A DNA stretch of 64,000 nucleotides from Lingula anatina (GCA_051362555.1 CM120640.1:36289967-36353966); one strand, 5' to 3'. Counted from the first letter of the stretch, positions 14,721 to 62,970 are shown. Program-made: numbers and translations. The notes: generated by a model not told the origin, from the letters alone.

Positions 14721-17700
14721 TTAAACAAAGTGCAGTGTTTTTGCAATGTCTTTGGTTAGTAGAGCCCGAATGTGAATGTCATGGAGAAATAAATGTCCGC
14801 TGTTGAACATTTTTATACCAAAGCTGAAATCCTTGTGACGTATATCTTCCCAAGCAGTTAGCTTTTCCCTTGCAACAAATGCATCATTTTTTCCACCATA
14901 TATCTTCAGGGGGCAGGGGAGTTTGGCTGAGGGTACATATTCGTAATTCTTGCTCATTTCATGAGTTGCTCTGAGAACAGGGACAAACTGTCGAAGGATC
15001 ATAGGATTGTTGATGATTTTCCCATCCAAAAATGTTAGCTGCTGTGCCTCTTTCACAAAATTCACATTGTCCATGTTGCCGTCTAGGATTTTATTTCTGA
15101 AAGTAGGGGTTTCTTTGTATGGTATTTGTGGTGCAATCCATGCTCCCATAAAAAGGTGTGCTGGAAGAACCCCTTGCTCATTCAAAAAGTGTGCCAGTTC
15201 AAAGGACAAAAGGGCTCCAAAACTATGACCATAGAAGGCAAACTTCCCATGCTTCAAAAGTGGTCTCATTTCACGAGCTAATATACCAATGACCTCTGAC
15301 ATATTCTTCATAGGTTTCTCCAAGCGTCTTCCTTCCCAGCCAGGCAGCTGGGCCACATAGACCTGAGTGTGAAATTTTGAAAAATATTTTTGCCACCCAT
15401 TAAATGATGTCAGTCCCCCACCTGATGGAGGGAAACAAAAAAGCTGGAACTTTGGATTTTCCAGAATTTTCTCCGTGATGAAGAAAGAAGTTTTTGCCTC
15501 TTTGGATTGGTCAGAACCCTTGACAACCTCTGTTGATGCATTATCTCCTTTGGAATGCAGTTGCTTGCAGATTGTGGAAACTAACTGTGCAACGGTAGTG
15601 CTGCTGTTTAGAAGGTCAACTGGTGGAATTGATACATTGAATTCATTATCAATGAATGCTCTTAGCTCTGTTGCCATCAAGGAGTCAAGTCCCATTTCAA
15701 CTGGAGATGTGTCTTCACTGATGTCAACTATACCTAAGGTCTGCGACAGATAATTTTCAAGCTTTTCCTTAATGCTACTTTCTGTTTGATGAGATCGTGA
15801 ATATTTGCCAACTGCGAGTTCTTGCAATGTTTTCTTGCTAAACAAGTCTTGCAACCTCGATAATGTTACATCACCTTCTACTGCACCTTTTGTGATAAAT
15901 GAACGATGTTTACGTGCATATACTGCTTCGTCAAAATGACCGGTGACACCTAAGTGACTGTACTGAAGCTCAAGCATTGTTCCTAAAACTGCTGTTGTTT
16001 GGGATGGAGAAATGTGTCCTATGCCTTTCTCCTGCCATACTGACACTAAATTGTTGTCAGCTGCAAACCCTGCCTCTGATATTACTCCAAAACTTACAGC
16101 AGTGGCAGGCAGTCCCATACTTCTTCGCATCTCTACTAATGACACCAACACAGAGTTTGCTGTGGCGTAGTTGCTTTGTCCAGCATTTCCTATCAAAGCC
16201 ACTAAAGATGACATCATCACAAAATTTGCCAGAGGTAGGACATATTTCAATGAAATTTGATGTAATAAAACAGCTCCATATGCCTTTGGTAACATTACTG
16301 CCTCCCAGTCTTTCTCAGACATGTTGGTCATCCAATTATCCAAGTAAACTGTTGCACAGTGAAAAATGTTTTCCACTGGGGGTTGAGTTTCCACTATCTC
16401 TGAAAACACAACATCTACAGCACTGGCATCGCTGACATCACATATATACAGTTTAATGTCTGCATTTTTACCAAGCTGATCAAGGACACTTTGGTTTGCA
16501 GTTGTTGGATTACTTCGAGTAAGTATGACAACATGTTTCGACCCTCTTCTGATAAGCCATCTCACAATTTTCAGACCCATACCCTTTGCACCCCCAGTGA
16601 TACACTGTGTCATTTCTGGATTAGGCTTGTAGGTATCTTCTGAAAAGGTAGATACCATTCCCATACTAGGTCTATCAAGATGAATCACCCTACCCATGCA
16701 TTCCTGCAGATATTTGTTTTCAATTTTTGAAGCTGGCAAAGCATGGCCTATGGTTGGTAAATGACACAATTTGTTAGATAATGCATCAACAAACTTCAAT
16801 GTCTCAGCAAGATATTGTGGTATTTTGAGGAGTTGTTTCACCCCAGCACTAATTGGTAGAAACTGGATGTTTTCACGAATGCCATTAAAATTCCTGAGCT
16901 TTAATGGGGTCTGAGTGAAAACAACAAACACACCAAAATCGCAGAGGCAATCAAGGCACTGGAAATATCCTTTCTTGTTTATCAGATACTGGCCAGTTGC
17001 AACAACAGCACTGAACTTTCCAATATTCTGCAAAGTATCTTCTTGGAGAACCTCTTCATCTTCCATAAAATTGCTGATTTTTTGTCCACATGGCAGTTTT
17101 TCATGATCTGGGCAGTCATTATTACACTGGTAGCTTAAAATGGTAACATTACACCCTAAGGTTTTGAGAATCTGTGCAGTGACCAATCCTTTTCTGGATT
17201 CTTCACAAGTACAAACCAGCACTCTATCATCTTCTCGAACAGATTTGGCAGAGTAGACCATAATTACACTTGCTACAGCATCATTCACTAGAGAGAGCAA
17301 TGCAGCGTGAGAGGTCTCGAAATTTCCCAGTGGCATGACATTTTCTTGAGGGATCAAAGTTTCAGATTTGAGACATCCCTTAAAAACTGCAATAACAGTT
17401 TGCCCATCTTGTAAATTAGCTTCACTGCCTTTGCTTTGTATTACATGTCCTGTGCAAATGAAGTGTGGGTCATCATCAAAGTAGCCATCTGCAATAAAGT
17501 GCTCAATGGATATCCGGAAAGAGTTATCAGGTTGTACATCTGTGATTGTATCTCCTTCATACACATATTTTATCTGCTTTGCCTTGTTTTGGTGCAGCCT
17601 GAACTGGTGAGAAACAATGGGATGTCTTCTCGTCAAAGGTGATTGGAACTTAGTTCTTCTCACAAATAACTGTAGTGAGTGTGCTGTTTTAGGGCGAAGC

Positions 17701-20700
17701 GCAAATTCATTTTCCCCGAAAGGCGGAAAACAGAGTAGGTTCATGAGCTCAGTTTCAGGTGTTGAGATGTCACTCAAGCTCGAAATATCTACCATGTAAA
17801 CCCTGGCACTAGGGTACTCATGGAGTGTACTCAGGCCAACTGCAAAGGTAGAGGCAGTGAAAGGTGATACTTGATCTCCTTCTGATACCTGAAAACCCTT
17901 GACAGTAATGATCCATAGCTTTGGCAATACATCTCCAAGATTTAAAATGCCAAGGATAACATCTCTTGCAAAAGATGAACTGCTCTTTATAAGCTTCCAC
18001 ACATCTTCTTTTGTTGTAATTGTTGGCCCAGAAATATGACTCTCATTTTGGGAAATGAGTATCAGGACAATATCATCCACATTCAGTTTTCTTTCATCTT
18101 GGAGGTCAAGTATTTTCACTACTCTGTGTAACTTTTTCAGTGAACTCTGTAGAACAGTCAAATCTTCCTTGTTGTCACTGGTTAAGTAGAATACCGGGGA
18201 TGCCTCTCCTTTCTTTTCATTCTGTTTGGGTAATGCCGCTTCAACCCAGAAGATGCTCCACACCTTCATTGGATCCTTAGAATGCTCCCCTTCTAATGAC
18301 TGAAAGGACAGGTTGTCTATCCTACAGCATACAATTCCAGAATCTGCATCAATTGCCAAAACCTCATTTTGATCCTCATCAGTGGCACTCAGCATTTTGA
18401 TGTATACAGCTACCCTTTTGGGTGTTTTCTTGCTATAGTAAGTAAAGCGCTTCAATGAAGATGGGAATGCTGGAGAATTAGTACGGAGCAAGTGGAGAAC
18501 AGCAAAGCTCTGCATCATGCAATCAAGGAAAGCTGGATGAAAGTTGTACAGCATGAATTCTTTCCAAATTTCATCTGGTGCTTCTGTATGAATTAGGCAC
18601 TTTGTGAAGCTTTTGTTAAAGGATGCCTGTTGAATTGCTCTGAAGGCTGATCCTAGTTGGATTTCACCAACAGCCAGATTGCTGTAAAATTCTTCAGAAC
18701 TATAGTGTAACTCAAGAGAGTCTTGTATATGTTCCAGTTTTCCTTGAGGAAGAGTAAATGCTTCTCTCACAATATCTACCTCTTGAGTCTTGAATTCATC
18801 TTCTTCCAAAGCCACAACTTTACAGCTGACATGCTCTATGTAGTCACTCTGGTCACCACTACATATTTTGATATTTGTTGTCGGATCATTTTCTTGAAAG
18901 ATCGTATGTATAGTTGCTTCTCCATTTTTGGGGAAGAGAAAGCGTTTCAATTCCACATCTTCCAGTGTTATAGTTTCTCTTTTTTGGCGCACTGCATTGA
19001 CAGCTTCCAATGCTGTTTCTATGTAGGCTGTACCAGGGAGGATGACGCTGCCTTGGATTATGTGGTGACTCACCCAGGGTGTGTTTATTCTTGAAATCTT
19101 GCTTTTCCAGTGGAATTGGAAGGGGGGGTCATTGTTATACATGCTGACATCTTCTTGCATTTCTCCCAATAATGGATGGCTATGGACAGGAAAAAGGTAT
19201 TCTCTTCTCACAAAATCTGTTATTCCACTGCAAGTGATACGTTCCCAAGGGTAGAGGGGTAAATGCATCACTTTGTAAGCAGATGGAAACATGGCTTCAT
19301 ATTGGACAGGGTATCCTTCACAGTGGAGGGAAGTCAAGGTCTTCACAACATTTTTCAAATCTTCTAAGATTGGTGATGAAGCTGTAGGTCTTTTAAGTGT
19401 CTCTAATACCACTACTTTCACTGGCTTGTCTGCTCTTGCTCCAATGATATCTTTTATTGGACCTCTAAGTGCCGGATGAGCACCAATCTCAACAAAAATG
19501 GAATAGCCTTCATCAAGAAGAGTGTCCACAGCACTTTGGAATTTGACTTGTTGTCTAACATTTTTCCACCAATACATGCCATCATTTACATCTGCGTAAT
19601 GATTGTAATTGTTGGTAACAGTGGAAATCATAGGAACTTGGACAGCATTGACCACCTCTTGTTTTGCTAGTGGTTTCATCTTTTGGAGGAATTTCTCTTT
19701 CAGTGGCTCTTGTTGGTAGCTATGAAATGCATTGTTTACTTTCAACTGAACAGCTCGAATCCCTTCTTGGTTAAACATTTCAGCTAGGGCATCGACTGAG
19801 GATGCTGAGCCTGAGAAAACTACTTGTGAAGGACTGTTGATGGCTGCCACATCAATATATACAGAATGCTTGCTTTCATTCAATTTTGCTTGAGCTGCAT
19901 CTGTATTGTGTAACACAGCTAGCATTTTCCCACTGCCGCTGGTTTTCTTCAATAGCTTGCCACGGTTGTAAATAATCAGCACAGCACTGTCAAATGATAG
20001 CATACCTGATGCATAAGCTGCAGCCACTTCTCCTACACTGTGACCTACCACAGCATCTGGCCGGACACCAAATTTCCGCAAGACTTCAACAAGACCTATC
20101 TGAACGGCACAGATAGCAGGCTGGGCATATTCTGTAATAAAAGTGCTTGTAGTCTTCTGGTGTTCTTGTATTGTATTTATATATTTGTAGTAGACAAATT
20201 GAGTGGGTGATCATCACAAGTAACAAAAGTTAGAGGAGTCTACTACTAAAGAAACAAAAGCTTGAAGCCATGAGACCTCTTCTTGATATGTCTTCGCCTT
20301 CATGATATCTCTTCTGTACTATGTAAGCTAGATTTACACATATATATTAACCACAAAATAAAAACAAATTGCCAGATATTTACCTGTTTGATTTATCAAA
20401 TCTTCATCCTGATTGTTCATTAGTAGCCACTGCATTGACCACTTTGCTCCACACCTTTTCAAGCAGGTATCAAAGTTCTGAATTGGGAAAATGATTGGCT
20501 TTTATAAGTAAAATACCTTTTTGATGTTGAGATATTTAACATTTGGAAATATCCTAGATTAATATTACTAAAAATCACTTATAATTATGTATAGCAAATT
20601 AGGTCCTACTTTCACAGAAGACAACAATAAAATCCCCGATTCCATTTTAATTAGACACTAGTCTCCCTCCTGTAACATGGAAAAAAATGCCAAGTTGGGA

Positions 20701-23700
20701 CTCCTATGGGCTAATAAACATTAAAATGTGTCATTGGCAATGGGCTCCACACAGATCCCAAATTCACTATTCTAAAAAAAAGCTTTAACTTGGCACCCAC
20801 AGTACTATCCACCATATAATTGTATTTAAAAAGTATCACTGAGCAAACTAATATGTACAGACTTGACATTGTAAACATGGAATGTTTCAGTTTAATAGGT
20901 ACTAGGTATGTCTTGGTATAAAACATACTGTTTTTAAAAACATTTATTTCATATGAGATATGTGAATAAATAAATGTGTAGTCAGGTGTGTCAGTAGTAC
21001 TAAATTAATTAATTGACTGTGTTGTCTGTAACATTACATAATATGCAATAGTTTCATTGAGAAGTACTCTTTGACTGCCCTTTATATGAGTATGAGAGAT
21101 CATGGTTCTGTTAAAAAAAGTCTTCATATTTCAATTATGCCTTCACAGATTATTAAAAAATTTTGCATACAATTAGTCAGTTAAAGGGAGTATTCAGAAC
21201 AAGTTGATTTGCAGACTAACAGATACATGGATCAAATATGACCAACCCACTTAAAAGCTTGGTGTATATACATGTACCCTAACAGACACTAGATAGAATC
21301 CCCGCAGGGCTAGGTCATAATGTTTCAGGTGGGTCAGCTAGAATGTACAAAGATCTACTAACACTATTGATTGTTGTTGTATGACTAAAAATCAGCCATG
21401 TATTTTGTCTGTTTAGTAAGGGTAATTAAGTTACTTAAGTGATGTCACAATGACACTATAGAGATAGTTAGAAGTTTCTAGAACATGATTTGAATCCTTT
21501 TTTTTTTCATTTATCCGTCAGAAAAATAGGAAAAAATTGAAGAAAAATGATTTGGAAAAAATATTCAACAGTAAGTGCCAAGTTTTTATGCTAGCTATAT
21601 GTCCAACAGCTATAGCATTACAGTGACAAGATTAATATTTTATAAATAATTCATATCATACCTGGATTGTTTTGGCAAATGTTGGTTCCTGGTGAACAAG
21701 CTGTCGGCCCATTCCCCACCACTGTGTTCCCATGCCATTGAAAACAAATACCAGTGGTGTTTGCGTATTTGAATCCACAGCTTCACCTGAAACAAAACCA
21801 GCAGCCACTTTCTGTGTCTTGAAAGTCTCCAAAGAATGCAAAATTTCGGACGCATCTCTCCCAAGAACACCAAGGCGATGTTGATGATGATGTGAGCGCA
21901 GGCAAGTAGTAGCTGCCACATCATAGAATCTCTCTGGTTCTTGATCCTGTATCTTGCGAAACAACTCAATGAAGTCGTCAACGCGTGATGACAATGCTGT
22001 AGGTGTTGCTGCAGATATCAACACAACCTATTCACGCGAAAACAAATTTTTTTCCAATTTAAATACAAAGCTGTCCTAAGTGTGTTTTTGTTTGTTTGTT
22101 TGTTTATTTGTTTGTTTGTTAAGGTGTTGGAGTCAAACAGATATAGCCTTTGGTGTATAAGCATGAGAGAAGATTTACGTTATCCAGGAGACTAGTTTTT
22201 AATACTGACATTGTATAGTTGGCCATGCATTTTTGCATAAGATGCCACATGGCATAAGTTATTTCACAGATTTGGTATGCCAGAATAAATGCCATACATA
22301 GAGAAGCTGGGTTAAATAGTAACCCCTGGTCTATGTGATATATAATAAAATTGAAAACATAATCTATCCACCCAATATATTATGAAATTTTTTGTCTTTA
22401 CCTTAATTTGTGGTCCTGATTCATGTTCTGGCAGAAGTAGATCATTGGTGGAAGGAGGGGCTTCAAGTATTACATGGGCATTTGCACCTCCAAAACCAAA
22501 TGAACTGCAACCAGCAATCAAAGGCATTTCTTCTACATAAGGCCAAATTATCAATTCCTTTGGAACCTTGATATTCAGTTCTTTGAACTTTATTTTTGGA
22601 TTGCCCAACTTGAAATGTACTACTGGAGGTATCAATTCATTGTGTATCATCAGAGCAACCTTGATGACCCCAGCAATGCCTGATGACCCTTCACAATGGC
22701 CAATGTTTGACTTAACTGAGCCAATATAAAGTGGGGTTTTTGCATCTTTAATTTGACCAATAGTCTTTCCAAGAGCGTTGGCTTCAGTGGCATCACCTAC
22801 TTGTGTACCAGTCCCATGGGCTTCCACGTATTGTATATCTTGTGGGTTTATCATAGCGTGACGACAAGCACGATATACAAGATTGACTTGTGCGGAATAG
22901 CTTGGGTTGGCAATGCCCGGAGTTCTGCCATCATTGCTGAGTGCACCACCGCGGATGACTGCATAAATCCGGTCTCCATCTTCAACAGCCTTGTTCAATG
23001 ATTTTAAAATAATTACCCCAGCCCCTTCACTTCGACAGTACCCATCAGCAGAGGAATCAAAGCTTTTGCTCCTACCATCAGGTGCCAGCATGCCAGCTTG
23101 ACAAAATCCAATAGTGATTTCTGGCATCATTATAACATTGACCCCCCCTGCCACTGCCATGTCGCAGTCACCGTTTCGGATGGCTTCTGAAGCTAGATGA
23201 ACAGCATACAGTGAAGAGGAACAAGCTGTGTCAATGGAGAAACTAGGTCCACGGAGATCAAACTCGTATGATATACGATTGGAAACCATACAACTGTTAG
23301 TGCCAGAGTTTGAGTATTGACTGATAGCGTCAGATCTTGCAGATGTTAAGGTTGTGTATTCGCTAGCTGTCACCCCCATGTAAACACCTGAAAGCACACA
23401 TTCAACATCTCATTACCAAATGCAAGTCATATAATTCCATTAGCTGTATGTATAAGCGCAATCAGAATGTAACATGCACTTTGTAAAAATAGATAGGTAA
23501 AATTTAGACAAAAGTAGAAGTAAAAATTAAATTTTAGAGGAAATAACCACCTGTACCCACCAGTCCTTAAGAAAAATCTCAGAAGAAAAGACCACAAAAG
23601 GGAAAAAAAGAATTGCCATTGTTAAAAATATCTGAGAAAGCTGGCTCTTACATATTGTGTATCGATGGGGTATTATTCTTAAAGGATGTGTTAACTCGTG

Positions 23701-26700
23701 TATCTTTACAATTTATGTTGAGTTTTGGCGAAAGTTATCAATATTAACGCAAAAAAAACTAGTGTTGAAAAAGGCAATCCACTTATGCAGATTTTTGAAA
23801 GGAAATTTTTTATCAAAGTTGTCCAGTTATTTTTTTTAGTAAAACAAAATATGGTTTATCAGTGAACATGTTCAACAGGTGTGGTGGATGGTAATGGCGA
23901 TGGAGCAGACAGGCACAGTGATCAGAACAAATCAAGCACATACAGTGCCTGTATTAAAAATTGAAAGAATAAGAATCGATTAAAACGTTGTCTTGTTGAG
24001 GGGTCTGGTTCAATCAAGCCATTTTTTTTTCTTGTCTCGAAGATTACATACTGGAAATCTGGTAAGTTATGATTATAACACTGACAATAATTCTGATAAT
24101 AAATACTGGTTAAAGGTATAATTCATGTTCTGATGGCTAAACAAACTAAAAGCCAACGTCACAACATTCAATCAAGACACTGTTGGGGTTTGAACTAATG
24201 CTGAAACACCTTTGGATCAGCAGTGATAATGTTTATGATATTCACTTAAGTCCATATTGACATTTTACCAAACTGTACAACCCACTCCACCTGTAAACAT
24301 TTATTTTGGAAAGGCAAAGACAGCTCAGGGTAGCAGTACAAGTGGCCTTCGCAACGTTTACTACACCTACCGCAGTTAGTCCCTCGGATGGACCTTGCTG
24401 GAATTCCACCATCTTCGAAGGCCTCCCACACCACTTCTAAGAGGAGACGGACTTGAGGATCCATGTGATTTGCTTCGTCTGAAAGCAGTTTCATTGAATT
24501 TCATTGAATATTGAACTTTATCAGTCTATTTATCTGTTTAAATTATTGTACTGTAACACTAAAAATGGTGCAAAATCTAATGCTCAAGCGTTTCAACCCT
24601 TTATTACTCTTGTTAAAGCAATAATAACTCTTCCTTTGAGATTCAAAATTCCACAAGAAATACATTCTAAACAACACACGGAAATATATTATATTGCATT
24701 TCACCACTAAAACGGCTGTTATTGTAGTAAAATTAAAAACTGTGCTTGTCAATAGGGCTTTCGGTGCCTTTCTTCCCGGTCATCAAGGCATTCGTTGCCA
24801 AGGATTTTGGCGCATCACGCGGATTCTCGCGTGCATTCGAGACAAAAATAACATGTGGCGGGATGAGATATAGCACAATTCTCAGACGTAAGTTGCGAGT
24901 TTTTGTACGGTGTGTCGGATAACGAATAGCCCAGAACTGCACACGTTGTGGATATAAATGCATTCTGAGCAATAAGACGATTATATCGTATGAATCTTAT
25001 TTTATTGTAATAAAGTGTTGTTGTTGTCTGCTTTTCCCACGGTTTTAAGTAGGTCATCAGAAAACCCCGCTCGATAGGCTATGTTAGAGAGGGCTCCGTC
25101 AGTTAAAATCTCTTAAGAGATTTTAACAAAAAACCAAGCGTTTAGGAAAAAAACCCTGGACTAACTTTGAATGCAGGAATGGGGTCGTTGACCATTGGTA
25201 AATTTGGGAAAATTGCCGTTTACGCCAGGAAAATCCAATTTTTGGCCAAAACGAAGTGTTATTATGACTTTAACTGTTTCAAGTACTTCTAATTCTGTGT
25301 ATGTCCACTTTACAAAATAAAAGTAGATCAGACATCATCAGCAAGGTCTGCTTAACACAACATGCCTAATGGACTGTTGTACTTCTAAGACCCCCTTCCC
25401 ATACCTAGATTGATCTAGGTATGGGAATGGGGTCTAAGATGTATGATTTAGTGTCTGGTTTATCAACTGACTCTTGGTCTTGTAGGTATATCAGCAACAA
25501 CTTACATTAATTGTTCACGAGCTCATTTAGATATAAACCATTTACATGTGGGTTTTAGGATGGTTTATTTAAAAACACCTTGAAAACGTACGACGCATTG
25601 ACGAGTGATAACGGGGTCCCATGTGGTCAGATAAAACCTGCCAGTATATAATATTAAACAGCAAAATATAAACAAAATATAGAAAAATATACTTAAAAGA
25701 AATTTTAAAATGAACTAAAAGGAACCACTTCCCTAATATTCATAATATAAAAGAAATAACATAAATCGTATAAAGCAAATTTAAGAAACTACAAGCACTG
25801 AGGAAAAAAAATAATGAGAAATTATTAAATAAGAAAACTTTGGAAGTGACCCAAGTCAGTCCTACTTTGAAAATGTAACACATGACGATAAGTGATAACG
25901 AATTCTCACGTAGCAAGATCAAAGCTGCTGCAGATTGGACCAAGGTAGCTATTTTTGTGAACCAAGTAGGAGATACATGTGAAGGTGATGTAACGGCTGG
26001 AAATGGAGCCTATTTACCGCTCTCTCATTGGTCGGAATAAATTAAACACTGAGAAAATTGGGAGAAGATGTCTGTTATGCTCTTGTTTAAGTCACATTTT
26101 CCAGAAAACAGGCTACAAGGGTACCCATAGTTTTAACTGTACTATTACATAACAATTACGAAGCTGATCATTGTGTAAATTAGAGATGCCAGTAGAAGAA
26201 CATATTGACCTACCTAGCTTAAACATTGAAATACTTCAACACCAATTATTTTTTAATATGCAGCTCCTAAGTGAGAGGGATACGTTTCTTACCAAGCGGT
26301 TGATAAAGAGGGTAGTTTTGACCATGTTCCGTGAGAGCCATTCAGAGGGATACCATCATTCCAAACAGGCACTTGAGACATATGGGACAACATCATTACC
26401 AAACAGGCACACAGGCAAAATTACCTGGGCAAGACCGACTGAAGAAAACCACACCATGAGAAAGAGAGAGTGACCGCGGTGGATTTAGTGGTCACTACAA
26501 TATTTTTTTATTTTGAAAAAGATTCATTAATCATTGGCAAGTATTCTAGATAGATATTCACACCACGAACATCTGTTTTACTCCACCTTCCCTGCCAAAA
26601 TGAAGAGTGTTATCCCTTTGCATTATTGCACATTATATGTGGTATGTTTCAACCTCAGTACATGTTTTCTTCATACAAAATTGCAATGTAAAAATATACC

Positions 26701-29700: not shown

Positions 29701-30369
29701 CAACAATATATAAAAAGCTGTAAAAATATTCAAAACAGTTAATATAAATTTCTATAGGTTCCTATAAGATTTCCTATAGGATCCTATAAGATTTCCTATA
29801 GGATCCTATAGGAAATTGGGCCAATTTCCTATAGGAACCTATAGGAAATTCTATAGGATCCTATAGGAAATCTTATAGGATCCTATAGGAAATTGGGCCA
29901 ATTTCCTATAGGAACCTATAGGAAATTCTATAGGAACCTATAGGAAATTCTATAGGATCCTATAGGATATTCTATAGGATCCTATAGGAAATTGGGCCAA
30001 TTTCCTATAGGAACCTATAGGAAATTCTATAGGATCCTATAGGAAATTTCCTATAGGAATCCTATAGGAAATTTTCGTAAGGGATTGAACATTTAATTTT
30101 TCCACATATGTTGTAATTATCTTCAAAGGACAGTTCATGCTGTGATAAAGATATGATATTACAAACTTAATTTACTCACTTTTTGGAACTATTGTTGCAT
30201 TATCGGAACCTGGTTAATGTTTTAAAAAAGATACACTTACCTCCCAAAAGTCCTTGACGTTATTAATTTCCCCTGGGAAACGACAACCGATTCCAACAAT
30301 TGCAACTTTCTTGTTTTCAGGTAGCCAAGTAGGCATTTGACATGGTTCTTTTTTGCGTCTTTGAGGCAT
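14721..30369 (-). CDS. Type I (probably iterative) polyketide synthase PKS-A, KS-AT-DH-psiKR-degenerate ER-KR-ACP-TE, ~2421 aa, 7 coding exons
   Basis: Exons (GT-AG, phases consistent): 30369-30241, 26871-26700, 24478-24371, 23387-22402, 22027-21662, 20477-20384, 20131-14721 (7266 nt). KS: [43 protein letters not shown]: GMGTQW, GHSVGE, NAFHS. DH: [23 protein letters not shown]: [21 protein letters not shown]: GLDSLMA. TE: GHSFG...GHLFL. Confidence 0.93.
24620..25280. repeat. Copy of a dispersed repeat family (probable non-autonomous transposon) in PKS-A coding intron 2
   Basis: Segments (gagattcaaaattccacaa...; ctcttaagagatttt...gactaacttt...accattggtaaa...; gccaaaa.gaag.gttat) recur at ~13270-13420, ~44000-44340, ~26585 and ~61645. 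Confidence 0.5.
25389..25434. mobile_element. 46-bp hairpin mini-MITE (two TIRs only) with TAA target-site duplication, PIF/Harbinger-like
   Basis: gacccccttcccatacctagat-tg-atctaggtatgggaatggggtc, one mismatch between arms; TAA on both flanks. Confidence 0.6.
27080..30083. mobile_element. 3.0-kb TIR DNA transposon (CCC...GGG ends, 2-bp AT TSD, CMC/EnSpm-like) with subterminal CCTATAGG arrays, in PKS-A coding intron 1
   Basis: TIRs cccttacgaaaatttcctatagga / tcctataggaaattttcgtaaggg; arrays at 27095-27195 and 29750-30070; the empty site is visible in the PKS-B intron at ~62670-62730. Confidence 0.85.
27732..27900. mobile_element. 169-bp MITE nested in the 3-kb element
   Basis: TIRs caggcctgtagccag / ctggctacgggcctg; 5-bp direct repeat caact on both flanks. 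Confidence 0.8.
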
Positions 30370-33088: not shown

Positions 33089-33121
<33 letters not shown>

Positions 33122-34392: not shown

Positions 34393-34427
<35 letters not shown>

Positions 34428-35762: not shown

Positions 35763-35943
35763 TTCAAAGCCTTTAATACCCCTGCTAACACAAAAACGTT
35801 GCTTAGATGTATGTTTAACCAAAGTTTTTTCATAGCTTTTAATGGGTTATCTTTTTTAACATTTTCAAAAACGTAACTGGGTAAATATAACCGACAGATG
35901 TCAACATGTTTAGACCAGTATGACAGTAAGTGATAAAACTTAC

Positions 35944-36363
35944 CTTGAGTTTAACTGATTCAGATTCGGCTACGATTAACCCAGCCCGTCCGTTTGAGAT
36001 GAAGCTAGAAAACAGGTTTTCATAAAAAAGTGACAAGCTGAAAATAGAAAACAGTTTTTTTAGAAACGAATTGAATAGCCGACTAGGAAGTAACGGCATA
36101 AAAATATCTGAGGCTCAGCCAATCACGAAAAAGTTATTGCCAAACTGGAATATCACGTGATCTTTGAATGCAGAAAACAATACCCCTTCCTGACATAACT
36201 TGCATTCTGATACCGATCAATTAATAATAACGAGCAACGGGTGTGTGTTTTCATGGCGCTGTATAACAAGAAGACCAGATAAAAGTCTGTCTCCTACCTT
36301 ATTCACAGCGCTATCGACGGTAAAATTGGCCTTTCAGCAGTGTGCGATGTGAAGATCTGACAG
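35944..36363. promoter_or_regulatory. Putative bidirectional promoter with non-coding first exons for PKS-A (-) and the PTCHD gene (+)
   Basis: Minus-strand donor AAG|GTAAGT at 35944/35943; plus-strand donor CAG|GTAAGG at 36363/36364; between them GGAAGT (36086), CCAAT (36119-36123) and palindrome ATCACGTGAT (36152-36161). The PKS-A ATG is 2 nt after an acceptor AG, consistent with an upstream UTR exon. Confidence 0.55.
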
Positions 36364-53800: not shown

Positions 53801-56800
53801 AAAGGCCAAGTTGGGACTCTTATGGGCTAATAATAATTAGAACTTGTCATTGGCAATGGGCTCCACCCCAGTACTACCAACCACATAATTTTATTTAAAA
53901 AGTATCACTGAGCAAAACAATACGTGCAGACTTGACATTGTAAACATGGAATATTTCAGTTCAATAGGTATGTCTTGGTATAAAACATACTGTTTTTAAA
54001 AACTTTTATTTCATTATGAGATATGTGAATATATAAATGTGTGGTATTAAGGTGTGTCAGAAGTACTAAATTTATTAATTAACTGCCTTGTCTGTAACAT
54101 TACATAATATACAATAGTTTTTTTGAGAGGTACTCTTGACTGGCCTTTATATGAGTACGAGAGATCATGGTTCTATTTGAAAAAGTCTCCATATTTTGAT
54201 AATACCTTCACAGATAATTTTGAAATTTTGCATACAATTAGTCAGTTAAAGGGAGCATTCAGAACAAGTTGATTTGCGGACTAACAGATACATGGATCAA
54301 ATATGGGCAACCCACTTAAGAGCTTGCAGTATAATCCCCTAATAAACACTGGATAGAATCCCCATGGGGCTAGGTGGTAAGCTTTCAAATGGGTCATCAA
54401 AATTTGATCTGCAAATCAGTCAGTCCATAGATCAACTTCTGTTGTGAATTTGGCCAAACTGTGGATGTATTGAGCGAAGCAGTGTTTCACAGCACTGTAA
54501 CTCTATCAGAATGGTCCAAAACACTGCCAACATTGCCATACAAAATGTTGTGTCACAAGAAACTGTCTGTACAGTTTTGCAGAGTAATGCCCAGAAGGGT
54601 TTACCTAAGCAGAGGTATCCACATCTTACCACCAGCAAACAGGACCCATTGTTCTTATGGTTTTGCTCCTTGTAACAAACAAATGCAACTGTTCACTTCA
54701 GCATGAGGGCCAGATTGCAACTAGTAAGTGTTTTTCTAATACAACAAAGTATGACTTAGAGTTACTGGACAGCATTGGTATTTGTAGTAAAATTCCAATT
54801 AGCAGTCATCCATGGAAACCTGAACCATGTCAAATATTTGGCTTTTCTGGGAATCTCCTGCTTACCATTTGCTAGAAGGCACCTCAGGAACAATTTTATT
54901 TGCAAGACCAGGGGCCTGATTTGAGCCAAATACAATCTGTGGGTTGTCAATATTTGCCAAATCAATGGTCTACTGGTCCTACAACAAATCTGAACCAAAC
55001 TGAATTTTTTCCAATACCTGGAAAGTTCTTCCTGATGAAACTCTAGAAAACCTGTCAGAAGGAATGTGCATGCCTTTCTGCTTAAGAGACCTGGCAGCAG
55101 CCAGATGAGACCAGAAGCACCTTTGGCAAACCTTGGACTAAACACTGATATTAGCAACCTTTGTGGGGCATGCTATTCTTTCAAAGATGATCATTTAGAA
55201 TGTACGAAGATCCACTAACAATGTTGATGTTTGTTGTATGACTAGAAATCAGCCATGTTTTTTTGTCTGTTTAGCTATAGGGTTATTAAGTTATGTAAGT
55301 GATGCCACAATGACACTAAAGAGATAGTTAGAAAGTTTCTAGAACATGATTTGAACGTTTGTTTCATTTATCCATCAGAAAAATAGGGAAAAATTGAAGA
55401 AAAATTATTTGGAAAACAATTATTCAACGTTCAGTGTCAAGTTTTTACACTGGCTGTGTCCAGCAAGATATTATAGTGACATGATTAATATTTCATAAAT
55501 GGAACTAAATAATTCATATCATACCTGGATTGTTTTGGCGAATGTTGGTTCTTGGTGAACAAGCTGTCGGCCCATTCCCCACCACTGTGTTCCCATGCCA
55601 TTGAAAACAAAAACCAATGGTGTTTGTGTAATGGAATCCACAGCTTCACCTGAAACAAAACCAGCAGCCACTTTCTGTGTCTTGAAAGTCTCCAAAGAAT
55701 GCAAAATTTCAGATGCTTCTCTCCCAAGAACACCAAGGCGATGCTGATGATGATGTGAGCGCAGGCAAGTAGTAGCTGCCACATCATAGAACTTCTCTGG
55801 TTCTTGATCCTGTATCTTGCGAAACAACTCAATGAAGTCCTCAACGCGTGACAACAATGCTGTAGATGTTGCTGCAGATATCAACACAACCTGTTTACAA
55901 AAGAAAACAAAATCATTTTCCAATTTAAATACAAGGAAAGCTATCCTTAACATTTTTTCTTAATGGAATGCTGTAAATTAGAAAGATACAGCATATAGTG
56001 CATTACGTACCATTAGGGAAGCTAGGTTACATTATCCAGCAGACATTAAAGTGTTAAATACTGACAATGAATAATTGGCCAAGCATTTTTGCATTAGATG
56101 CCACATGGCGTAACTTATTTCATAAGATTTGATGTGCCAGAATCCATGCCATACAAAGAAAAATTGTGTTTAATAATAACCACTAGGCTATGTGATATAT
56201 AATAAAATATATAATTTAATCTAGCCACCCACTATATGATGAATGTTTTCATCTTTACCTTAACTGGTGGTCCTGATTCATGTATTTGCAGTGGTGCATC
56301 GTTGATGGAAGGGGGGGCTTCAAATATGATGTGGGCATTTGCACCTCCAAAACCAAATGAACTGCAACCAGCAATCAAAGGCATTTCTTCTTCATAAGGC
56401 CAAATTATCAATTCCTTTGGTACCTTGATATTCAGTTCTTTGAACTTTATATTTGGACTGCCCAACCTGAAATGAACTACTGGGGGTATCAACTCATTGT
56501 GCATCATAAGAGCAACCTTGATGACCCCAGCAATGCCTGATGCCCCTTCACAGTGACCAATGTTTGACTTAACTGAACCAATATAAAGTGGAGTCTTTGC
56601 ATCTTTAATTTGACCAATAGTTTCTCCAAGAGCACTTGCTTCGGTAGTATCACCTACTTGTGTACCAGTCCCATGGGCTTCCATATATTGTATATCTTGT
56701 GGGTTTATCATAGCATGACGGCATGCACGATATACAAGATTGACTTGTGCAAAATAGCTTGGGCTGGTAATGCCCGGAGTTCTGCCATCATTGCTGAGTG

Positions 56801-59800
56801 CACCACCGCGGATGACTGCATAAATCCGGTCTCCATCTTCAACAGCTTTGTCCAGTGACTTCAAGATAATTGCTCCAGCCCCTTCACTTCGACAGTACCC
56901 ATCAGCAGAGGAATCAAAGCTCTTGCTCCTACCATCAGGTGCCAGCATACCAGCTTGACAAAATCCAATAGTGGTGTCTGGCATCATTATAAGATTGACC
57001 CCCCCTGCCACTGCCATGTTGCAGTCACCGTTTCGGATGGCTTCTGAAGCTAGATGAACAGCATACAATGAAGAGGAACAAGCTGTGTCAATGGATAAAC
57101 TAGGTCCATGGAGATCAAACTCGTATGATATACGGTTGGAAACCATACAACTGTTAGTGCCAGAGTTTGAGTATTGACTGATAGTGTCACATCTTCCAGA
57201 TGTTAAGGTTGTGTATTCGCTAGCTGTCACCCCCATGTAAACACCTGAAATCACACATTCAACATCTCATTACTTTGCAAATTGTATAATTACAATAACT
57301 GTAAATACAATCTAAATCTATAAATACAATCTGAATATAACATGGAGCTGGTAAAAATAGATAGGTACAATTTAGACAAAAGTACAAGTAAAAATTAATT
57401 TTTTGAGGAAATAACCTCCTGTACCCACCAGTCCTTAAGAGAGATGTCAGAAGACAAGACCACAAAAGGGATCAAGGCAGCAAAGCTGTCAAATGTACAG
57501 ACAAAAAGCAGAAAATGAAGATGCAGAAAAATTTGTCAATTTTGATACAATAAATAATGCTTATAACAGCATAGTCAATTAACACTAAAATTTAATCATG
57601 CACAACAGCTTACATGGTCAATAAGATTACAGTTTCAGGACCATAAGTGAAAGTTCAAATTCAAATAATGAATATCCCACTATGCGAAAAATTATGACAG
57701 TGCATAAAATAATATTACATTATGTTTAAAGACATAAACACAATACAATTGCTTATGTGGAAATACAGAAAATGCACAGAGCTTCTGGTGGATGGGAGTT
57801 AAAAGTCACATCTTGAAGATGCTAGTGTTTGAAAAATAATTTAAAAAAAATTAAAATAAAACATAACCAAAAATTCCAATAAAGCCATCATTCAAACTTT
57901 TAATCTAGCTGTATTAACATGAAGCTGCACTTCAGTCCTATGAAACTTTTCAGTAAGTTTGAGTATCATAAGTAATGTGGTTTTCCCTTAATGGTCATCC
58001 TGGCAGCACTGTCCAAAATAGGGTTTTCTTCAACTTTTATGCAATAACATAATGCTTAACAGCATAATGACCATCAATTTTTAATAATAAAGTAAAAGTT
58101 TGGGAAGGGTAAGTGACATGGTTTTCCTTTAAGGGTCACTATGGAGGCAGTGCCCAAAATAAGGTTGTCTGTAATTTTGATGCAAAATTACATAATGCTT
58201 TACAGCAAAATGACCATCAATTTTTAATAATAAAATTAAAGTATCATGGATATTAAGAAAATGAGAGATGTTAAAGTCTTCAAGGCCATCCCAGCAGGCA
58301 TAGTGATGTTGGATCAATGTTGAAAACAGGTTGGGACATTGAATTGCCGTTGATCTACCTAAATTCAACATAAAATCAACATTGATCCAGCCATATATAT
58401 TATATAAGAAAATAACTATATATATATATAAGTATATAAAACTAAACCCTGGAAATCCTAACTTAAAGGCCATACATATATACCCTACATATATTTAGCC
58501 ATCAAACATGTCCTACTGCTAAACACAACCAGGCTAAAAGGGTGTACCAAGCTTAGGTTAACATGTTTTTACAATGTACGTTACAATTGTGTACCTGTTT
58601 TTTGTACCAAAATTAAAAACATTTCAGGTCATTTTAATGTCTTTTCATGCAAGAATGTTGTCTAACAACTGGGGTTGATACAATGTTGTTATCTGACATT
58701 GATACAACGTTGTTATCTGACGTTGATCCAACTTTCAAATCCAACGTTTATCCAATGTCTTATCAATGTTATGGTTCAATGTTGTTTCAACGTTAAAACA
58801 ACATAATTTGCCCGCTGGGAAGGAAGTTCAGAGTCACACCTTCAAAATGCCAAAATGTAAACAAAAGACAACTGTACTGAAATGGTTTCCTTTCCATTTT
58901 CAGCACCTTTTTTACATAAAACAGAATAATCAATTTACTGTCTTTTTTAAATGATCCACTAAGAAAATTGTTGACATAGGAAAATCATCAATAGAACAAT
59001 GTCAAATGTCCAATTTGCTCCATTCTGAGATTCTGAATGTGGTGAATGATTGAATCTGAAAAACTGTAAAGATATGAGTTGATTTCCTTTTCTGATATTT
59101 AATTACACAATACACAATAGCAGGTTTACCATCATTTTTATATAATCAACTAACAATATTGTTAAGATGCAGAAAATGTCAACAGAACACCTTTACATAT
59201 CTAATTAGTTAAAAATGAGACTGTTAACATGCCTAAAAATTAAATCTGAGGAAAAAACACTTTTATACAAAAAAGGCATAACTTCATCAAACCTGAACCA
59301 ATCAAGCTGATTTTAAAACTCGACCTGTATTTTAGTAAGATTGATCACTCCTGTGAGTAACAAAACAATAGGATTATCAGTTTTCCTTGAAATCCGTTAT
59401 CAGTGTTGCATATATGCTGAAGAAAGCAAAAAAAAAAAAAAAAAAAACAGCATAACTTTTGAAAAAATGGTCTGCGTATTATAAATATCCATCAGTTCTG
59501 TTAGTTTCAAGCCAAAAGGTAAAACGGTTTTTCACATTGTGTTATCAGTGTTGCATATATGCTGAAAAAGGTGAAAAAAAAAACATAACTTTTATGAAAA
59601 TGGCCCAATCATGCTAATTATTGAACTTGACCTGTGTTTTGTGAATAAACATCAGTTCTGTAAGTTTCAAGCAAAAAAGTAAAATGTTTTTTCACTTATC
59701 AAGTTATCGGTGTTGCATAAATGCTGAAAAAAGTGAAAAAAAAGCATAACTTAGATAAAAACGGCCCGCTCATGCTGATTTTTAAACTTGACCTGTATAT

Positions 59801-62800
59801 TATGAATATTCATCAGTTCTGTAAGTTTCAAGCCAGAAAATGAAATCATTTTCCACTTATTGTGTTTTTGGTGAAAGTGCACAGCGATGACAGACGCAGC
59901 TGATGGCTATATGTACCTGTACAGACACATCTGTGAAGACAAAGCTGTTAAAATAAATCCACAGCTGACATGGGCAACAGCAACTTCAATGACAGAACTT
60001 TGCAGTCACCATCCTACCCAAGTACAGGTACACCGCAGCCAACCAAACATTCCTTACTGCAAGCGAGCAGTCAAGAGTCCACAGTACTCAGCTTTGCACC
60101 CAAATAAACCTTATCATACATGTTACATGTTCAACACAGGTGTGTTGGATGGTAATGGAGATGGAATGGGCAGGCACAGTGATCAAAACAAATCAAGCAC
60201 ATGCAGTGAAGAATAAGAATGGATTAACATGTTGTCTTAGTGAGGGGTCTGGTTCAATCGAGCATTTACTGTGGAAAGACAGTTTAGGGTTCCAGTACAG
60301 GTGCTTTGAAAATGTTTACTATACGAACCGCAGTTAGTCCCTCTGATGGACCTTGCTGGAATTCCACCATCTTCAAAGGCCTCCCACACCACTTCTAAGA
60401 GGAGACGGACTTGAGGATCCATGTGATTTGCTTCATCTGAAAACAGTTCATTGAATTTCAGTGTATATATATTGAATTTTGTCAGTCTACTTATCTGTTT
60501 AAATGTAGTGTAACACTAAAAAACATACACAATCTTATGCTCAAGCATTTAAATCTTTTATTATTCTTGTTAAATGCTTCAAGTACATCTTTTTCTGTGT
60601 AGGTCCAGTTTCCAAAATATAAGCAGATAAGACATCGAAGATTATGTAAAGGAAAATTGGTTAGCTATAATACTGATAATATATCTGATAATAAATACTG
60701 GTTAAAGGTATAATTATTGTTCTGTTGGCTAAACAAACTAAAAGACAATGTAACAACATTCAATCAAGACATTGGAAAGGTTTGAACTAATGCTGAAACA
60801 CACTTGAACATGTTTTTTCTTTTAATGAAAAATGTTCTGGAACATTCTGAAGGGCTTCCCAAAACAGAGCTGTTACATTCATTACAGAACAACATTAGAA
60901 CTGTAAAAAAATACACCAAATGTTCTAGAATAGATTGAAAACCATAAGTAAACGTTACATGAGACAAAATTTCGTAGGGGATCATTCCAAACAGGCACAC
61001 AGGCAAAATTACTTGGGCAAGTCTGAGTGTAGAAAACCACACCAAGAGAAGAGTGACCGCAGTGGATTTAGTAGTCACTACAGTATTTTTTTTTTTTTTT
61101 TTTTTTGATGTAACGATTTCATTAATCATTGGTAATTACCCTGTATGGGAAGATCGATATTCATACCAGGAACATCTGTTTTAAAGGGCAGAAACCACTA
61201 AATCAACCAATCAGAATGTAGTTCAGTGAGAGAAAATGAGTGTTTTTTCCATTTTTGTTCCTGGCATTTCTTGTGTGTTGCTAGGGTTTATTTTGGTATC
61301 AACTAGCAGACTAGGGTGTAAACTACTGCCTGTTTTTTTTTTTTTTTTTTTTCAGGACCAGGCACAGGTGCAGTCGTGAGACCTCTGGCGGAAGGGGCTA
61401 CTGACTGTGAGTGGTGCAGTGGTTTGTTTACAAACAGAGGGGTGCACATGTTCAAGTGATGCCGGTAAGACAGTGGACTTGATGACAGTGTATTTTTTGC
61501 CATTGGGAGTTATGTCAGTGTGTCTGCTGTCCATGGAGATGGGGAATGTTTCACAGAGTAATTTTCTTTATGCAGGTTTGCAGGCATTTCTTAAAATGGT
61601 CGTCAATGGGAAATTTTTTGGTGGTTTCTCCCCTGTATTCTGCTTTTCATGCCCAAATGAAGAGCTGTTATCCCTTTGCATTATGTGGTATGTTTGACCC
61701 TCAAACGACTCATATACATGTATCTTAAAAAGTTTGTAAAATATCTTTATACAAAATTGCAATATCAAAATTTACCTGGAGACATCTTAAAAAACAGTCT
61801 ATCAAAGGACAGTAGGTCTTGCTCTAGGTAGCCCCCTCCTCTCACGTACAGCTTGCCTGGAGTCTTCGGTGTAGGATGATAAAAATGATTGACATCAAAT
61901 CTGTCATCTGGTAGTGGTCTGGTACAGTCAATGCCTTTAAGAAGCACCTTCCATACAAAAAGGAAAAATTAAGTTAAAAAGCTTAATTTAGTTCAGGCAA
62001 ACTTATCGTCGTGTAGATCATCTATTTGCACTTTTCGAAACCCTGGACTAAATACATACTAGGCCAGTATCCGGGTATGCATTGTCATAATAAGTTGTAT
62101 GTCCTACGTCTCCTATTCTCAGAAACACATCCCCCTGGACACAATTTCATGGGACTTTATACCCTGTGGACACCAATTACGTAGTATGAGGCCAGATGCA
62201 CCACTAACCATTGCTGTGACTCGATAATGATGTGGAGCATTTAACTCTTTCACAGATGATAATTTGGAAAATATGCAGACCATAATAACGCTTTTAATGG
62301 TTGTTGTTTGACTTAGATTCAGGCATGTATTTTTCTTTGCTTAATGGTGAAAATTCAATTAAAGAACTGAAGTCATAATTAGGTTAGAAAAGTGTATCAA
62401 AAATTATTTAAACCCTTGTTTTCATTTATAAGTCGGAAAAGTAGGAACAAATCAAAGAAAAATGATTTAGAAATAACCAGGAGCCGAGGTCCATTTACAC
62501 GTGCCATAAAATTGTTTATTTGCCATCATGACCATGGTTTATATCATAGTTGTCAATAAATAGAAAAAAAAAATCGTGTAGTAAGAAGTCTCTGACGCCT
62601 TTGTTACATGTAGCAGTGCGTGCAAGGGCACTTAATTGCTGCAGGTGTTAATGAAAATAGCTCACTCCAGCAGTCGCGGCTCCCTATTTTGATGTCTATT
62701 ATTGCACTTTTAATTTTCCCATATGTTGTAATTATTTTCAAAGGACAGTTAGAAGATATGATATTTCAAACTTTACTCACTTTTTGGAACTATTGTTGCA

Positions 62801-62970
62801 TATTAGAAACCTAGTTAATGCCTAAAAAAAAATACACATACCTCCCAAAAGTCCTTGACGTTATTAATTTCCCCTGGGAAACGACAGCCGATTCCAACGA
62901 TTGCAATTTTCTTGTTTTCAGGTAGCCAATTAGGCTTTTGGCCTGGTTCTTTTTTGCGTCCTCGAGGCAT
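47850..62970 (-). CDS. Type I polyketide synthase PKS-B, paralog of PKS-A, ~2418 aa, 7 coding exons
   Basis: Exons 62970-62842, 61947-61776, 60436-60329, 57244-56259, 55890-55525, 53601-53508, 53251-47850 (7257 nt). The first six exons have the same lengths as in PKS-A; catalytic motifs are intact (DTACSS, HGTGT, GHSVG, GQSNY, GLDSL, GHSFG). Confidence 0.93.
58290..58819. mobile_element. ~530-bp non-autonomous TIR element (CCCAG...CTGGG, CMC/EnSpm-like) in PKS-B intron 3
   Basis: Ends cccagcaggca / tgcccgctggg with subterminal caatgttg/caacgttg repeats; TSD not clean. Confidence 0.65.
59276..59870. repeat. Tandem array of ~4 degenerate 130-175-bp units
   Basis: Recurring cataactt (59277, 59451, 59584, 59746), aacttgacctgt, catcagttctgtaagtttcaagc and ttatcagtgttgcatatatgctgaa. 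Confidence 0.8.

What the first reader, a model, noticed from the sequence alone, without database searches (positions are those of the whole stretch)
14721..62970. Candidate animal biosynthetic gene cluster: two polyketide synthases sandwiching a Patched-family RND transporter
Seen: two intact paralogous type I PKS genes flank an intact PTCHD3/PTR-like transporter, which is head-to-head with PKS-A and tail-to-tail with PKS-B. Established: Patched/NPC1/Dispatched/PTR proteins are RND-fold, sterol-sensing-domain lipid transporters, many PTRs have no known substrate, and actinobacterial RND MmpL proteins often sit beside pks genes and export their lipids. Animal PKSs (budgerigar MuPKS, sea urchin PKS1/2, medaka OlPKS) are usually described as stand-alone genes. 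Inference: this may be a synthase-plus-exporter module for a secreted lipid or polyene (pigment, biomineralisation or surface lipid), giving an orphan PTCHD a candidate substrate.
Basis: partly seen in the sequence, partly recalled or inferred. Interest (0 to 1): 0.85.

Follow-up and report, generated by a model that had tools for sequence, protein, structure and literature searches.

The report
Ancient polyketide synthase–PTCHD3 transporter gene pair
In a lamp shell (brachiopod) genome, a gene for a polyketide-making enzyme sits head to head with the gene for an orphan membrane transporter, PTCHD3, a pairing also found in lancelets, sea stars and lizards, so the transporter likely exports the enzyme's fatty product, while the second enzyme copy is only a recent duplicate.

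Summary
Confirmed. The window is Lingula anatina DNA. It holds two intact 7-exon type I PKS genes (2421 and 2418 aa, 91.5% identical) and an intact 938-aa PTCHD3, oriented as described. The 'sandwich' is young: PKS-B is a recent duplicate (dS 0.14). The old unit is the divergent PKS-A/PTCHD3 pair. Accession numbers put a PKS within 2 numbers of a PTCHD3 in 4 of 10 deuterostome species and on one contig in all 10 (proteins picked for sharing a contig). Both genes are transcribed in 3 runs of one study and are silent or at trace level in 4 others. PTCHD3 keeps the three aspartates of Na+-driven Patched/Dispatched transporters. The PKS has a dead enoylreductase and a thioesterase, so it likely makes an unsaturated acid. 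Export is untested (about 50%). Against it: PTCHD3 persists where PKS is lost, and 8 of 28 PKS relatives share no contig with a listed PTCHD3. The adjacency is in print (clam and wall-lizard papers), but not as synthase plus exporter in the passages I saw. This scan noted it before in a fish and elephant shark.

The parts
14721..30369 (-). PKS-A, type I PKS (KS-AT-DH-degenerate ER region-KR-ACP-TE), 2421 aa. Coding exons 30241-30369, 26700-26871, 24371-24478, 22402-23387, 21662-22027, 20384-20477, 14721-20131
   Evidence: RefSeq match with 11 differences; splice joints
47850..62970 (-). PKS-B, recent duplicate of PKS-A, 2418 aa. Coding exons 62842-62970, 61776-61947, 60329-60436, 56259-57244, 55525-55890, 53508-53601, 47850-53251
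   Evidence: 91.5% amino-acid identity; 91% DNA identity over 6.9 kb including introns; dN 0.039, dS 0.139, all catalytic motifs kept
38104..42620 (+). PTCHD3 (Patched-related RND/sterol-sensing transporter), 938 aa. Coding exons 38104-39142, 40092-40292, 40657-40788, 41176-42620. Acidic triad D351, D352, D774
   Evidence: joints
36364..38092 (+). First (5' UTR) intron of PTCHD3; the non-coding first exon ends at 36363 and its start was not mapped
   Evidence: joint read by 21, 15 and 17 reads in runs X7, X8, X9; GT..AG in the sequence
35937..35945 (-). Predicted splice donor (AG|GTAAGT) of a non-coding first exon of PKS-A, ending at 35944
   Evidence: only AGGT[AG]AG match on the minus strand in 30372-36300; this 8-mer occurs twice in the window, the other being the PKS-A exon 1 donor. 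No read joint to it was among the rows shown
35944..36363 (.). Predicted shared bidirectional promoter region, with a CCAAT box at 36119 and a 10-base palindromic E-box (ATCACGTGAT) at 36152-36161, midway between the two first donors
   Evidence: the palindrome is unique in the window. Found after the fact; function untested

Best explanation
This is an old animal gene pair, an iterative-type polyketide synthase head to head with the orphan transporter PTCHD3, in which the synthase likely makes an unsaturated fatty-acid-like molecule and the transporter likely moves it out of the cell using the sodium gradient, both probably driven from one shared promoter; the second synthase is a recent tandem copy. 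Shown here: gene structures; intact KS (Cys, His, His), AT, DH, KR, ACP and TE motifs; loss of the enoylreductase NADPH motif; the transporter's three intramembrane aspartates and RND fold; joint presence or absence of both transcripts; neighbourhood in relatives. Inferred: malonyl-CoA loading, repeated extension with ketoreduction and dehydration but no enoyl reduction (an enoic or polyenoic chain), release as a free acid by the thioesterase, hand-over to the transporter, and a role at an outer surface or lumen (shell, mucus or mineral nucleation).
For: (1) Neighbourhood. Smallest PKS-PTCHD3 accession gap per species: 1 in Acanthaster planci, 1 in Asterias amurensis, 1 in Branchiostoma lanceolatum (GenBank numbers), 1 and 2 in B. 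floridae (older UniProt numbers), 9 in Ptychodera flava, 11 in Patiria, 30 in Anneissia, 115 in Glandiceps, 123 in Asterias rubens, 8931 in Antedon. All 10 species have both on one contig. 20 of 28 PKS clusters from species with a listed PTCHD3 share a contig length with one. (2) Papers (passages): PTCHD3 neighbours almost all homologues of a clam PKS while other flanking genes vary (PMC9894158); five Pks and five full-length Ptchd3 copies lie together in wall lizard (PMC10990284); PKS1 and PTCHD3 lie in one 56-kb window in crown-of-thorns seastar (PMC12330192). (3) Both trees show lineage-specific expansions of PKS and PTCHD3 in the same lineages. (4) RNA: both on in X7, X8, X9; both absent in X3, X4, X5; both trace in X1. 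(5) Transporter: GVDD and GFSVD motifs; 110 of 120 relatives keep all three aspartates, as do 14 of 14 copies within 30 accession numbers of a PKS, while 9 of 28 other invertebrate copies have lost one. These residues bind Na+ in DISP1, and PTCHD3 is named as fully conserving them (bioRxiv 10.1101/2020.09.05.284026, passages). The predicted C-terminal half matches NPC1, PTCH1, DISP1 and MmpL3/4/5. (6) The medaka PKS sits at the apical membrane of the otic vesicle and its product is secreted (PMC4604110, passages). Zebrafish ptchd3a is expressed in the otic progenitor domain (PMC10261724, passages) and pks1 in the otic vesicle (PMC6531356, passages). (7) Mouse and human have no such PKS (table in PMC4604110), and their PTCHD3 is dispensable (abstracts of PMC7285965 and PMC3072306).
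Against: No transport, product or knock-down data exist here. PTCHD3 persists in mouse and human without the PKS, and close relatives are abundant in insects and other arthropods (Drosophila has no PKS in the table). 8 of 28 PKS clusters share no contig with a listed PTCHD3, including the three nearest to sea-urchin PKS2, the skeleton gene (Acanthaster, Asterias rubens and Anneissia 2566-2610 aa); the PTCHD3 list was only the best 120 of 871. One lancelet PKS lies 2551 accession numbers from the PTCHD3 on its chromosome. Extract added to the medium rescues medaka pks mutants, so the product may cross membranes unaided. Transfected human PTCHD3 localised to the ER (abstract). The three positive RNA runs come from one study, no housekeeping gene was laid as a control, and the reads come from a diverged population. 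The shared promoter rests on a predicted donor only. No vertebrate or mollusc PKS was in my tree, so their orthology to this gene was not tested.
Confidence: 0.5

Rival explanations
1. The pair is kept together by shared regulation (one bidirectional promoter or enhancer active in a secretory epithelium). The two proteins serve the same tissue, but PTCHD3 moves some other lipid, such as a sterol, and not the PKS product.
For: Predicted shared promoter with a central E-box palindrome; joint expression; PTCHD3 retained where PKS is lost; nearest solved relatives are sterol transporters; externally added extract rescues pks mutants.
Against: The pair is repeatedly duplicated together into arrays in lancelets, sea stars, acorn worms and lizards, and PTCHD3 becomes dispensable in mammals that lack the PKS.
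Confidence: 0.27
2. PTCHD3 handles the PKS product or its precursor, but not as a plasma-membrane exporter: it works in the ER or a vesicle, supplies substrate, takes the product up, or senses it as a signal, as Patched does with sterol.
For: ER localisation of transfected human PTCHD3 (abstract); RND/sterol-sensing proteins run in either direction (NPC1, NPC1L1, PTCH1, DISP1; directions are recalled knowledge); zebrafish ptchd3a is on at 12 hpf in the otic progenitor domain, early in ear development.
Against: Medaka PKS product is secreted from an apically placed enzyme, which calls for an outward step; the full Na+ triad resembles PTCH1 and DISP1.
Confidence: 0.13
3. The adjacency is an inherited accident of gene order with no functional meaning; co-duplication just reflects segmental duplication of neighbours.
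For: Several PKS and PTCHD3 paralogues are unlinked; lancelet, echinoderm and brachiopod genomes rearrange slowly (recalled).
Against: The other flanking genes differ between lineages (a ZDHHC17-like gene here; Rab18/Acbd5 in lizard; many others) while the pair stays; joint expression.
Confidence: 0.1

Closest known systems
PKS-PTCHD3 neighbourhood reported for homologues of the clam PKS MpES (PMC9894158) and the Pks/Ptchd3 tandem array of Podarcis muralis (PMC10990284)
   Same: Same two gene families side by side; local tandem duplication
   Different: Here in a brachiopod, with two PKS and one PTCHD3 in view and a predicted shared promoter. Those papers use the adjacency as proof of animal origin or describe copy-number variation; the passages seen propose no synthase-exporter link
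Sea-urchin PKS2 and its lancelet, acorn-worm and sea-star relatives (KS-AT-DH-ER-like-KR-ACP-TE)
   Same: Best sequence matches (28-36% over the AT-to-TE part), same domain order, same loss of the ER NADPH motif, one group in the tree
   Different: The window's enzymes form their own long branch. The PKS2 subclade itself showed no contig shared with a listed PTCHD3. PKS2 serves calcium carbonate spicules, whereas the Lingula shell is calcium phosphate (recalled)
Vertebrate PKS (medaka OlPKS, zebrafish pks1, budgerigar MuPKS) beside PTCHD3
   Same: Single-module PKS with KR and DH; secreted lipophilic product in medaka; PTCHD3 next door in lizard
   Different: Vertebrate enzymes are listed as KS-AT-DH-KR-ACP without a thioesterase; orthology was not tested here
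Mycobacterial pks-mmpL clusters (RND lipid exporters)
   Same: RND fold (MmpL3/4/5 among fold matches, E about 1e-8, TM 0.53-0.61) next to a type I PKS
   Different: 11-13% identity; eukaryotic Patched branch with a predicted Na+ triad; no MmpS-type partner or tailoring genes seen in the window; an analogy, not membership

Membership tests
Animal type I PKS (PKS2-like group) | Single module KS-AT-DH-KR-ACP-TE | tested here: met
   Pfam
Animal type I PKS (PKS2-like group) | Intact catalytic residues in KS, AT, DH, KR, ACP and TE | tested here: met
   motifs in both copies; PKS-B has Ser for the usual Gly four residues after the DH His
Animal type I PKS (PKS2-like group) | Groups with animal PKSs and not with bacterial PKSs | tested here: met
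   tree of 42 rows: with lancelet, hemichordate and echinoderm PKSs apart from 7 bacterial rows (support 100 including one metagenome row, 83 without it); no FAS or AFPK rows were included
Fully reducing FAS/highly reducing PKS | Active enoylreductase with the GGVG NADPH motif | tested here: not met
   motif absent in both copies and in all 26 animal relatives aligned, present in 4 of 4 non-animal controls
Sea-urchin PKS2 orthogroup proper | One clade with S. purpuratus PKS2 | tested here: not met
   the window pair lies outside the 8-row PKS2 subclade and outside the 26-row ambulacrarian group
PTCHD3/Patched-related (RND, sterol-sensing domain) | 1+5+1+5 transmembrane layout with two large outer loops and a sterol-sensing domain | tested here: met
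   12 hydrophobic segments in that pattern plus one inside loop 1; Pfam Patched/Sterol-sensing; model of the C-terminal half, pLDDT 82, matches NPC1/PTCH1
PTCHD3/Patched-related (RND, sterol-sensing domain) | Closest relatives are PTCHD3, not PTCH, NPC1 or DISP | tested here: met
   41-51% identity to the best 120 hits, most named PTCHD3, against about 17-23% to NPC1, PTCH1 and DISP1
Cation-driven RND transporters (PTCH1/DISP1 type) | Three acidic residues in TM4 and TM10 | tested here: met
   D351, D352, D774; role from the DISP1 preprint
Biosynthetic gene cluster with dedicated exporter (pks-mmpL type) | Conserved physical linkage across lineages | tested here: met
   accession proxy and three papers; not universal, 8 of 28 misses
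Biosynthetic gene cluster with dedicated exporter (pks-mmpL type) | Co-expression in the same cells | tested here: inconclusive
   concordant in 7 of 7 bulk runs, but the positives come from one study and there is no cell-level data
Biosynthetic gene cluster with dedicated exporter (pks-mmpL type) | Transporter moves the synthase's product | not testable with these tools
   needs knock-out with LC-MS or a transport assay
MmpL family | Sequence membership | tested here: not met
   no MMPL Pfam hit on the window's exons; 11-13% identity in fold matches

The most novel reading that the evidence does not exclude
PTCHD3 is the dedicated sodium-driven exporter of animal polyketides. PKS plus PTCHD3 is a two-gene biosynthetic cluster, run from one bidirectional promoter, that dates from the last common ancestor of protostomes and deuterostomes: an animal counterpart of mycobacterial pks-mmpL. 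It would supply the missing secretion step for the otolith-nucleating PKS product and explain why PTCHD3 is dispensable in mice and people, who lost the synthase.
Probability: 0.4. Interest if true: 0.82.

Novelty: new member of a known kind. Interest (0 to 1): 0.58.

Why it matters
True biosynthetic gene clusters are rare in animals, and PTCHD3 has no known substrate. If the pair is a make-and-export unit, one experiment in an existing model (a zebrafish ptchd3a mutant scored for otoliths, beside the known pks1 mutant) would assign a cargo class to an orphan human-conserved transporter. It would also show how animal polyketides used in biomineralisation and colour leave the cell. The brachiopod locus adds a second protostome phylum to the pair and points to a short, testable shared promoter. 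The two-PKS sandwich itself is ordinary recent duplication.

Tried and rejected
No whole genome is held for this window, so I could not see whether PKS-B has its own PTCHD3 partner beyond base 64000, or whether a second Lingula PTCHD3 (P0122, another scaffold) has a PKS beside it. A search with the KS domain to reach vertebrate and mollusc PKSs returned almost only bacterial multi-module enzymes. No RNA holder was listed for the stretch; the runs laid were offered by species label only, and I laid 7 of 9. Assigning reads to PKS-A or PKS-B failed: the reads carry the PKS-A letter at 5 of 5 shown PKS-B exon-7 sites; at 37 PKS-A exon sites they carry the PKS-B letter 8 times and neither letter 29 times (37 of 40 shown rows, three intronic rows dropped, 737 rows not shown). 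The last 1 kb upstream of PKS-B has no similarity to the PKS-A/PTCHD3 intergenic region. The budgerigar MuPKS paper is not held, so what I say of it is recalled or taken from PMC10990284. Supplement searches for ptchd3 with pks gave nothing usable: one 7.8-kB file for PMC10261724, whose gene tables are not held and could show whether pks1 falls with ptchd3a; 8 files for PMC10396339; one file for PMC6531356. PMC13121700 (Lingula genome) has no hit for polyketide, PKS, patched or ptchd in its main text. No complex prediction was run, as I do not claim that the proteins bind. Rejected: assembly artefact or allelic duplicate (introns differ widely, dS 0.14); PKS-B as a pseudogene (open frame, dN/dS 0.28, motifs intact); bacterial contamination (spliced introns).

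Full report
1. Observation. Three long reading frames and their satellite exons assemble into three intact genes. PKS-A: minus strand, 30369-14721, seven coding exons, 2421 aa. PTCHD3: plus strand, 38104-42620, four coding exons, 938 aa. PKS-B: minus strand, 62970-47850, seven exons in the same phases, 2418 aa. All modelled introns are GT..AG and there is no internal stop. PKS-A differs from RefSeq XP_013403201.1 of the brachiopod Lingula anatina at 11 of 2421 residues, so the window is L. anatina DNA of another haplotype.

2. The sandwich is young. PKS-A and PKS-B are 91.5% identical as proteins, and 6.9 kb of DNA including introns aligns at 91%. dS is 0.139 and dN/dS 0.28: a recent duplicate still under purifying selection. 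They are sisters in the tree. The RNA reads, from a population mostly 90-95% alike to the window, look like a single sequence more distant from both copies than they are from each other. This suggests, but does not show, that the duplication is younger than that split. What lies upstream of PKS-B beyond base 64000 could not be seen.

3. The synthase. Pfam gives KS, AT, DH, KR, ACP and TE. Both copies keep the KS Cys and two His, the AT Ser with an AFH motif, the DH His and Asp, the KR nucleotide motif and Tyr, the ACP Ser, and the TE Ser and His. The enoylreductase region lacks the GGVG NADPH motif, as do all 26 animal relatives aligned, whereas 4 of 4 non-animal controls have it. From established PKS logic (my knowledge, not a call), such a single module works iteratively on malonyl-CoA, reduces and dehydrates but cannot saturate, and so gives an enoic or polyenoic chain that the thioesterase frees as an acid. 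The closest proteins are from lancelets, acorn worms and echinoderms, including sea-urchin PKS2 at 30%. The window's pair groups with them but lies outside the PKS2 subclade. Vertebrate, mollusc and FAS rows were missing from that tree because one search returned almost only bacterial enzymes.

4. The transporter. The best 120 of 871 hits, 41-51% identical, are nearly all named PTCHD3 or Patched-related where a name is given. Hydropathy gives the 1+5+1+5 layout. A model of the last 480 residues (pLDDT 82) matches NPC1, NPC1L1, PTCH1 and DISP1 and, more weakly, MmpL3/4/5. The three intramembrane aspartates (D351, D352, D774) are intact; 110 of 120 relatives keep all three, 9 have Asn at the second, 1 is gapped. 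In DISP1 these residues hold Na+, and the authors name PTCHD3 as conserving them fully (bioRxiv 10.1101/2020.09.05.284026, passages). All 14 copies within 30 accession numbers of a PKS keep the triad. Nine of 28 other invertebrate copies have lost one aspartate; the six of these in the tree fall in three lineages. This is a hint only.

5. The pair is old. No eukaryotic genome context tool was open, so I used contig lengths and accession order as a proxy. I looked up 30 proteins of the 240 listed, most chosen because they shared a contig. Smallest PKS-PTCHD3 gaps: Acanthaster planci 1, Asterias amurensis 1, Branchiostoma lanceolatum 1 (GenBank) and 3 on both sides (RefSeq), B. floridae 1 and 2 (older UniProt numbers) but 260 in RefSeq, Ptychodera 9, Patiria 11 and 14, Anneissia 30, Glandiceps 115, Asterias rubens 123, Antedon 8931. 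So 4 of 10 species show a gap of at most 2, 7 of 10 at most 30, and all 10 share a contig. The B. floridae case shows that RefSeq numbers are not strictly positional. Of 41 animal PKS clusters, 13 come from species with no PTCHD3 row; of the other 28, 20 share a contig length with a PTCHD3 and 8 do not, among them three close relatives of sea-urchin PKS2. One lancelet PKS is 2551 numbers from the PTCHD3 on its chromosome. [quoted passage not shown] The other neighbours change: here an ankyrin/DHHC (ZDHHC17-like) gene. This scan's earlier notes report the pair in a fish and in elephant shark; I did not test them.

6. Expression and promoter. Seven of nine offered RNA runs were laid. In X7, PTCHD3 coding bins reach summed depth 6-37 and PKS exon 7 bins 3-23; X4 and X5 have none on either, and X1 has about 1 or less on both. 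In X7, X8 and X9 a PKS exon-4 bin reads 19, 13 and 8 and a PTCHD3 exon-1 bin 32, 20 and 19; X3 has 0 on both. No run has one gene without the other, but the three positives are one study and no housekeeping control was laid. Reads reveal a non-coding first exon of PTCHD3 ending at 36363. Both PKS start codons follow a splice-acceptor-like sequence. The only strong donor on the minus strand between PKS-A and that exon lies at 35944, 419 bases from the PTCHD3 donor, with a CCAAT box and a palindromic E-box (unique in the window) midway. I read this as a likely bidirectional promoter. It was noticed after the fact, and no joint to 35944 was among the 15 rows shown (43 were hidden).

7. Mechanism and rivals. 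Most likely (0.5): one promoter turns on both genes in a secretory epithelium, the PKS makes an unsaturated acid, and PTCHD3 moves it outward against Na+ influx. Support from fish: medaka PKS is apical and its lipophilic product is secreted and nucleates otoliths (PMC4604110, passages and section 17 part 1); zebrafish ptchd3a is expressed in the otic progenitor domain (PMC10261724, passages) and pks1 in the otic vesicle (PMC6531356, passages). Mouse and human lack the PKS and tolerate PTCHD3 loss (abstracts). Against: PTCHD3 persists in mammals and arthropods; extract added from outside rescues the medaka mutant; transfected human PTCHD3 sat in the ER; some PKS copies are unlinked. Rivals: shared regulation with another cargo (0.27), an intracellular, uptake or sensing role (0.13), inert linkage (0.1). 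What the product does in Lingula is not shown; its shell is calcium phosphate (recalled), so a carbonate-nucleating role cannot simply be carried over.

8. Novelty. The adjacency is known. Ten library searches found three papers holding both 'polyketide synthase' and 'PTCHD3', and none of the passages seen proposes a synthase-exporter link; subscription journals and most supplementary tables were not searchable. PMC10764717 (passages) gave background on animal PKS clades only. The locus is a new member of a known gene pair. The functional reading is unpublished as far as these searches reach, and it is directly testable.

Noticed in passing
window 2435-7570 (+), probably extending further: Exons with ankyrin repeats and a DHHC palmitoyltransferase domain: a ZDHHC17/HIP14-like gene (name recalled from the domain layout), tail-to-tail with PKS-A.
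   Followed up: partly
window about 31330-33040 (-): Broken remnant of a BEL/Pao-type retrotransposon in the predicted 5' UTR intron of PKS-A; weak Pfam hits to Pao peptidase (E 0.0012) and DUF5641 (E 0.046), both below the curated cut-off.
   Followed up: partly
window 27078-27206 and 29742-30085: Palindromic tandem satellite built on a CCTATAGG core inside PKS-A intron 1, absent from PKS-B.
   Followed up: no
window 34812-35155 and 37144-37642: Degenerate direct repeat (70-84% alike) on either side of the predicted shared promoter; origin not examined.
   Followed up: no
window 43100-46300: Continuous RNA coverage downstream of the PTCHD3 stop in run X7 (depth up to about 35), possibly a long 3' UTR of PTCHD3 or PKS-B, mixed with repeats.
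   Followed up: no
window 63000-64000: CpG-rich stretch (CpG o/e about 1.1, GC 45-48%) upstream of PKS-B with no similarity to the PKS-A upstream region; may be a newly acquired promoter or a transposon.
   Followed up: partly
proteins P0122, P0222 and lancelet P0147, P0156, P0158, P0172, P0182, P0186, P0208: PTCHD3 paralogues not shown to lie beside a PKS carry Asn for the second TM4 aspartate, apparently arisen three times; all PKS-adjacent copies keep it.
   Followed up: partly
proteins P0002, P0003, P0020, P0071: Lancelet relatives carry an added condensation domain (one also an adenylation domain), and an acorn-worm relative carries ankyrin repeats, so the C-terminal end of this PKS group is swapped between lineages.
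   Followed up: no
fold match 9mw0: A mycobacterial MmpL5 is solved bound to an acyl carrier protein, a lead for asking whether the PKS ACP docks on PTCHD3.
   Followed up: no
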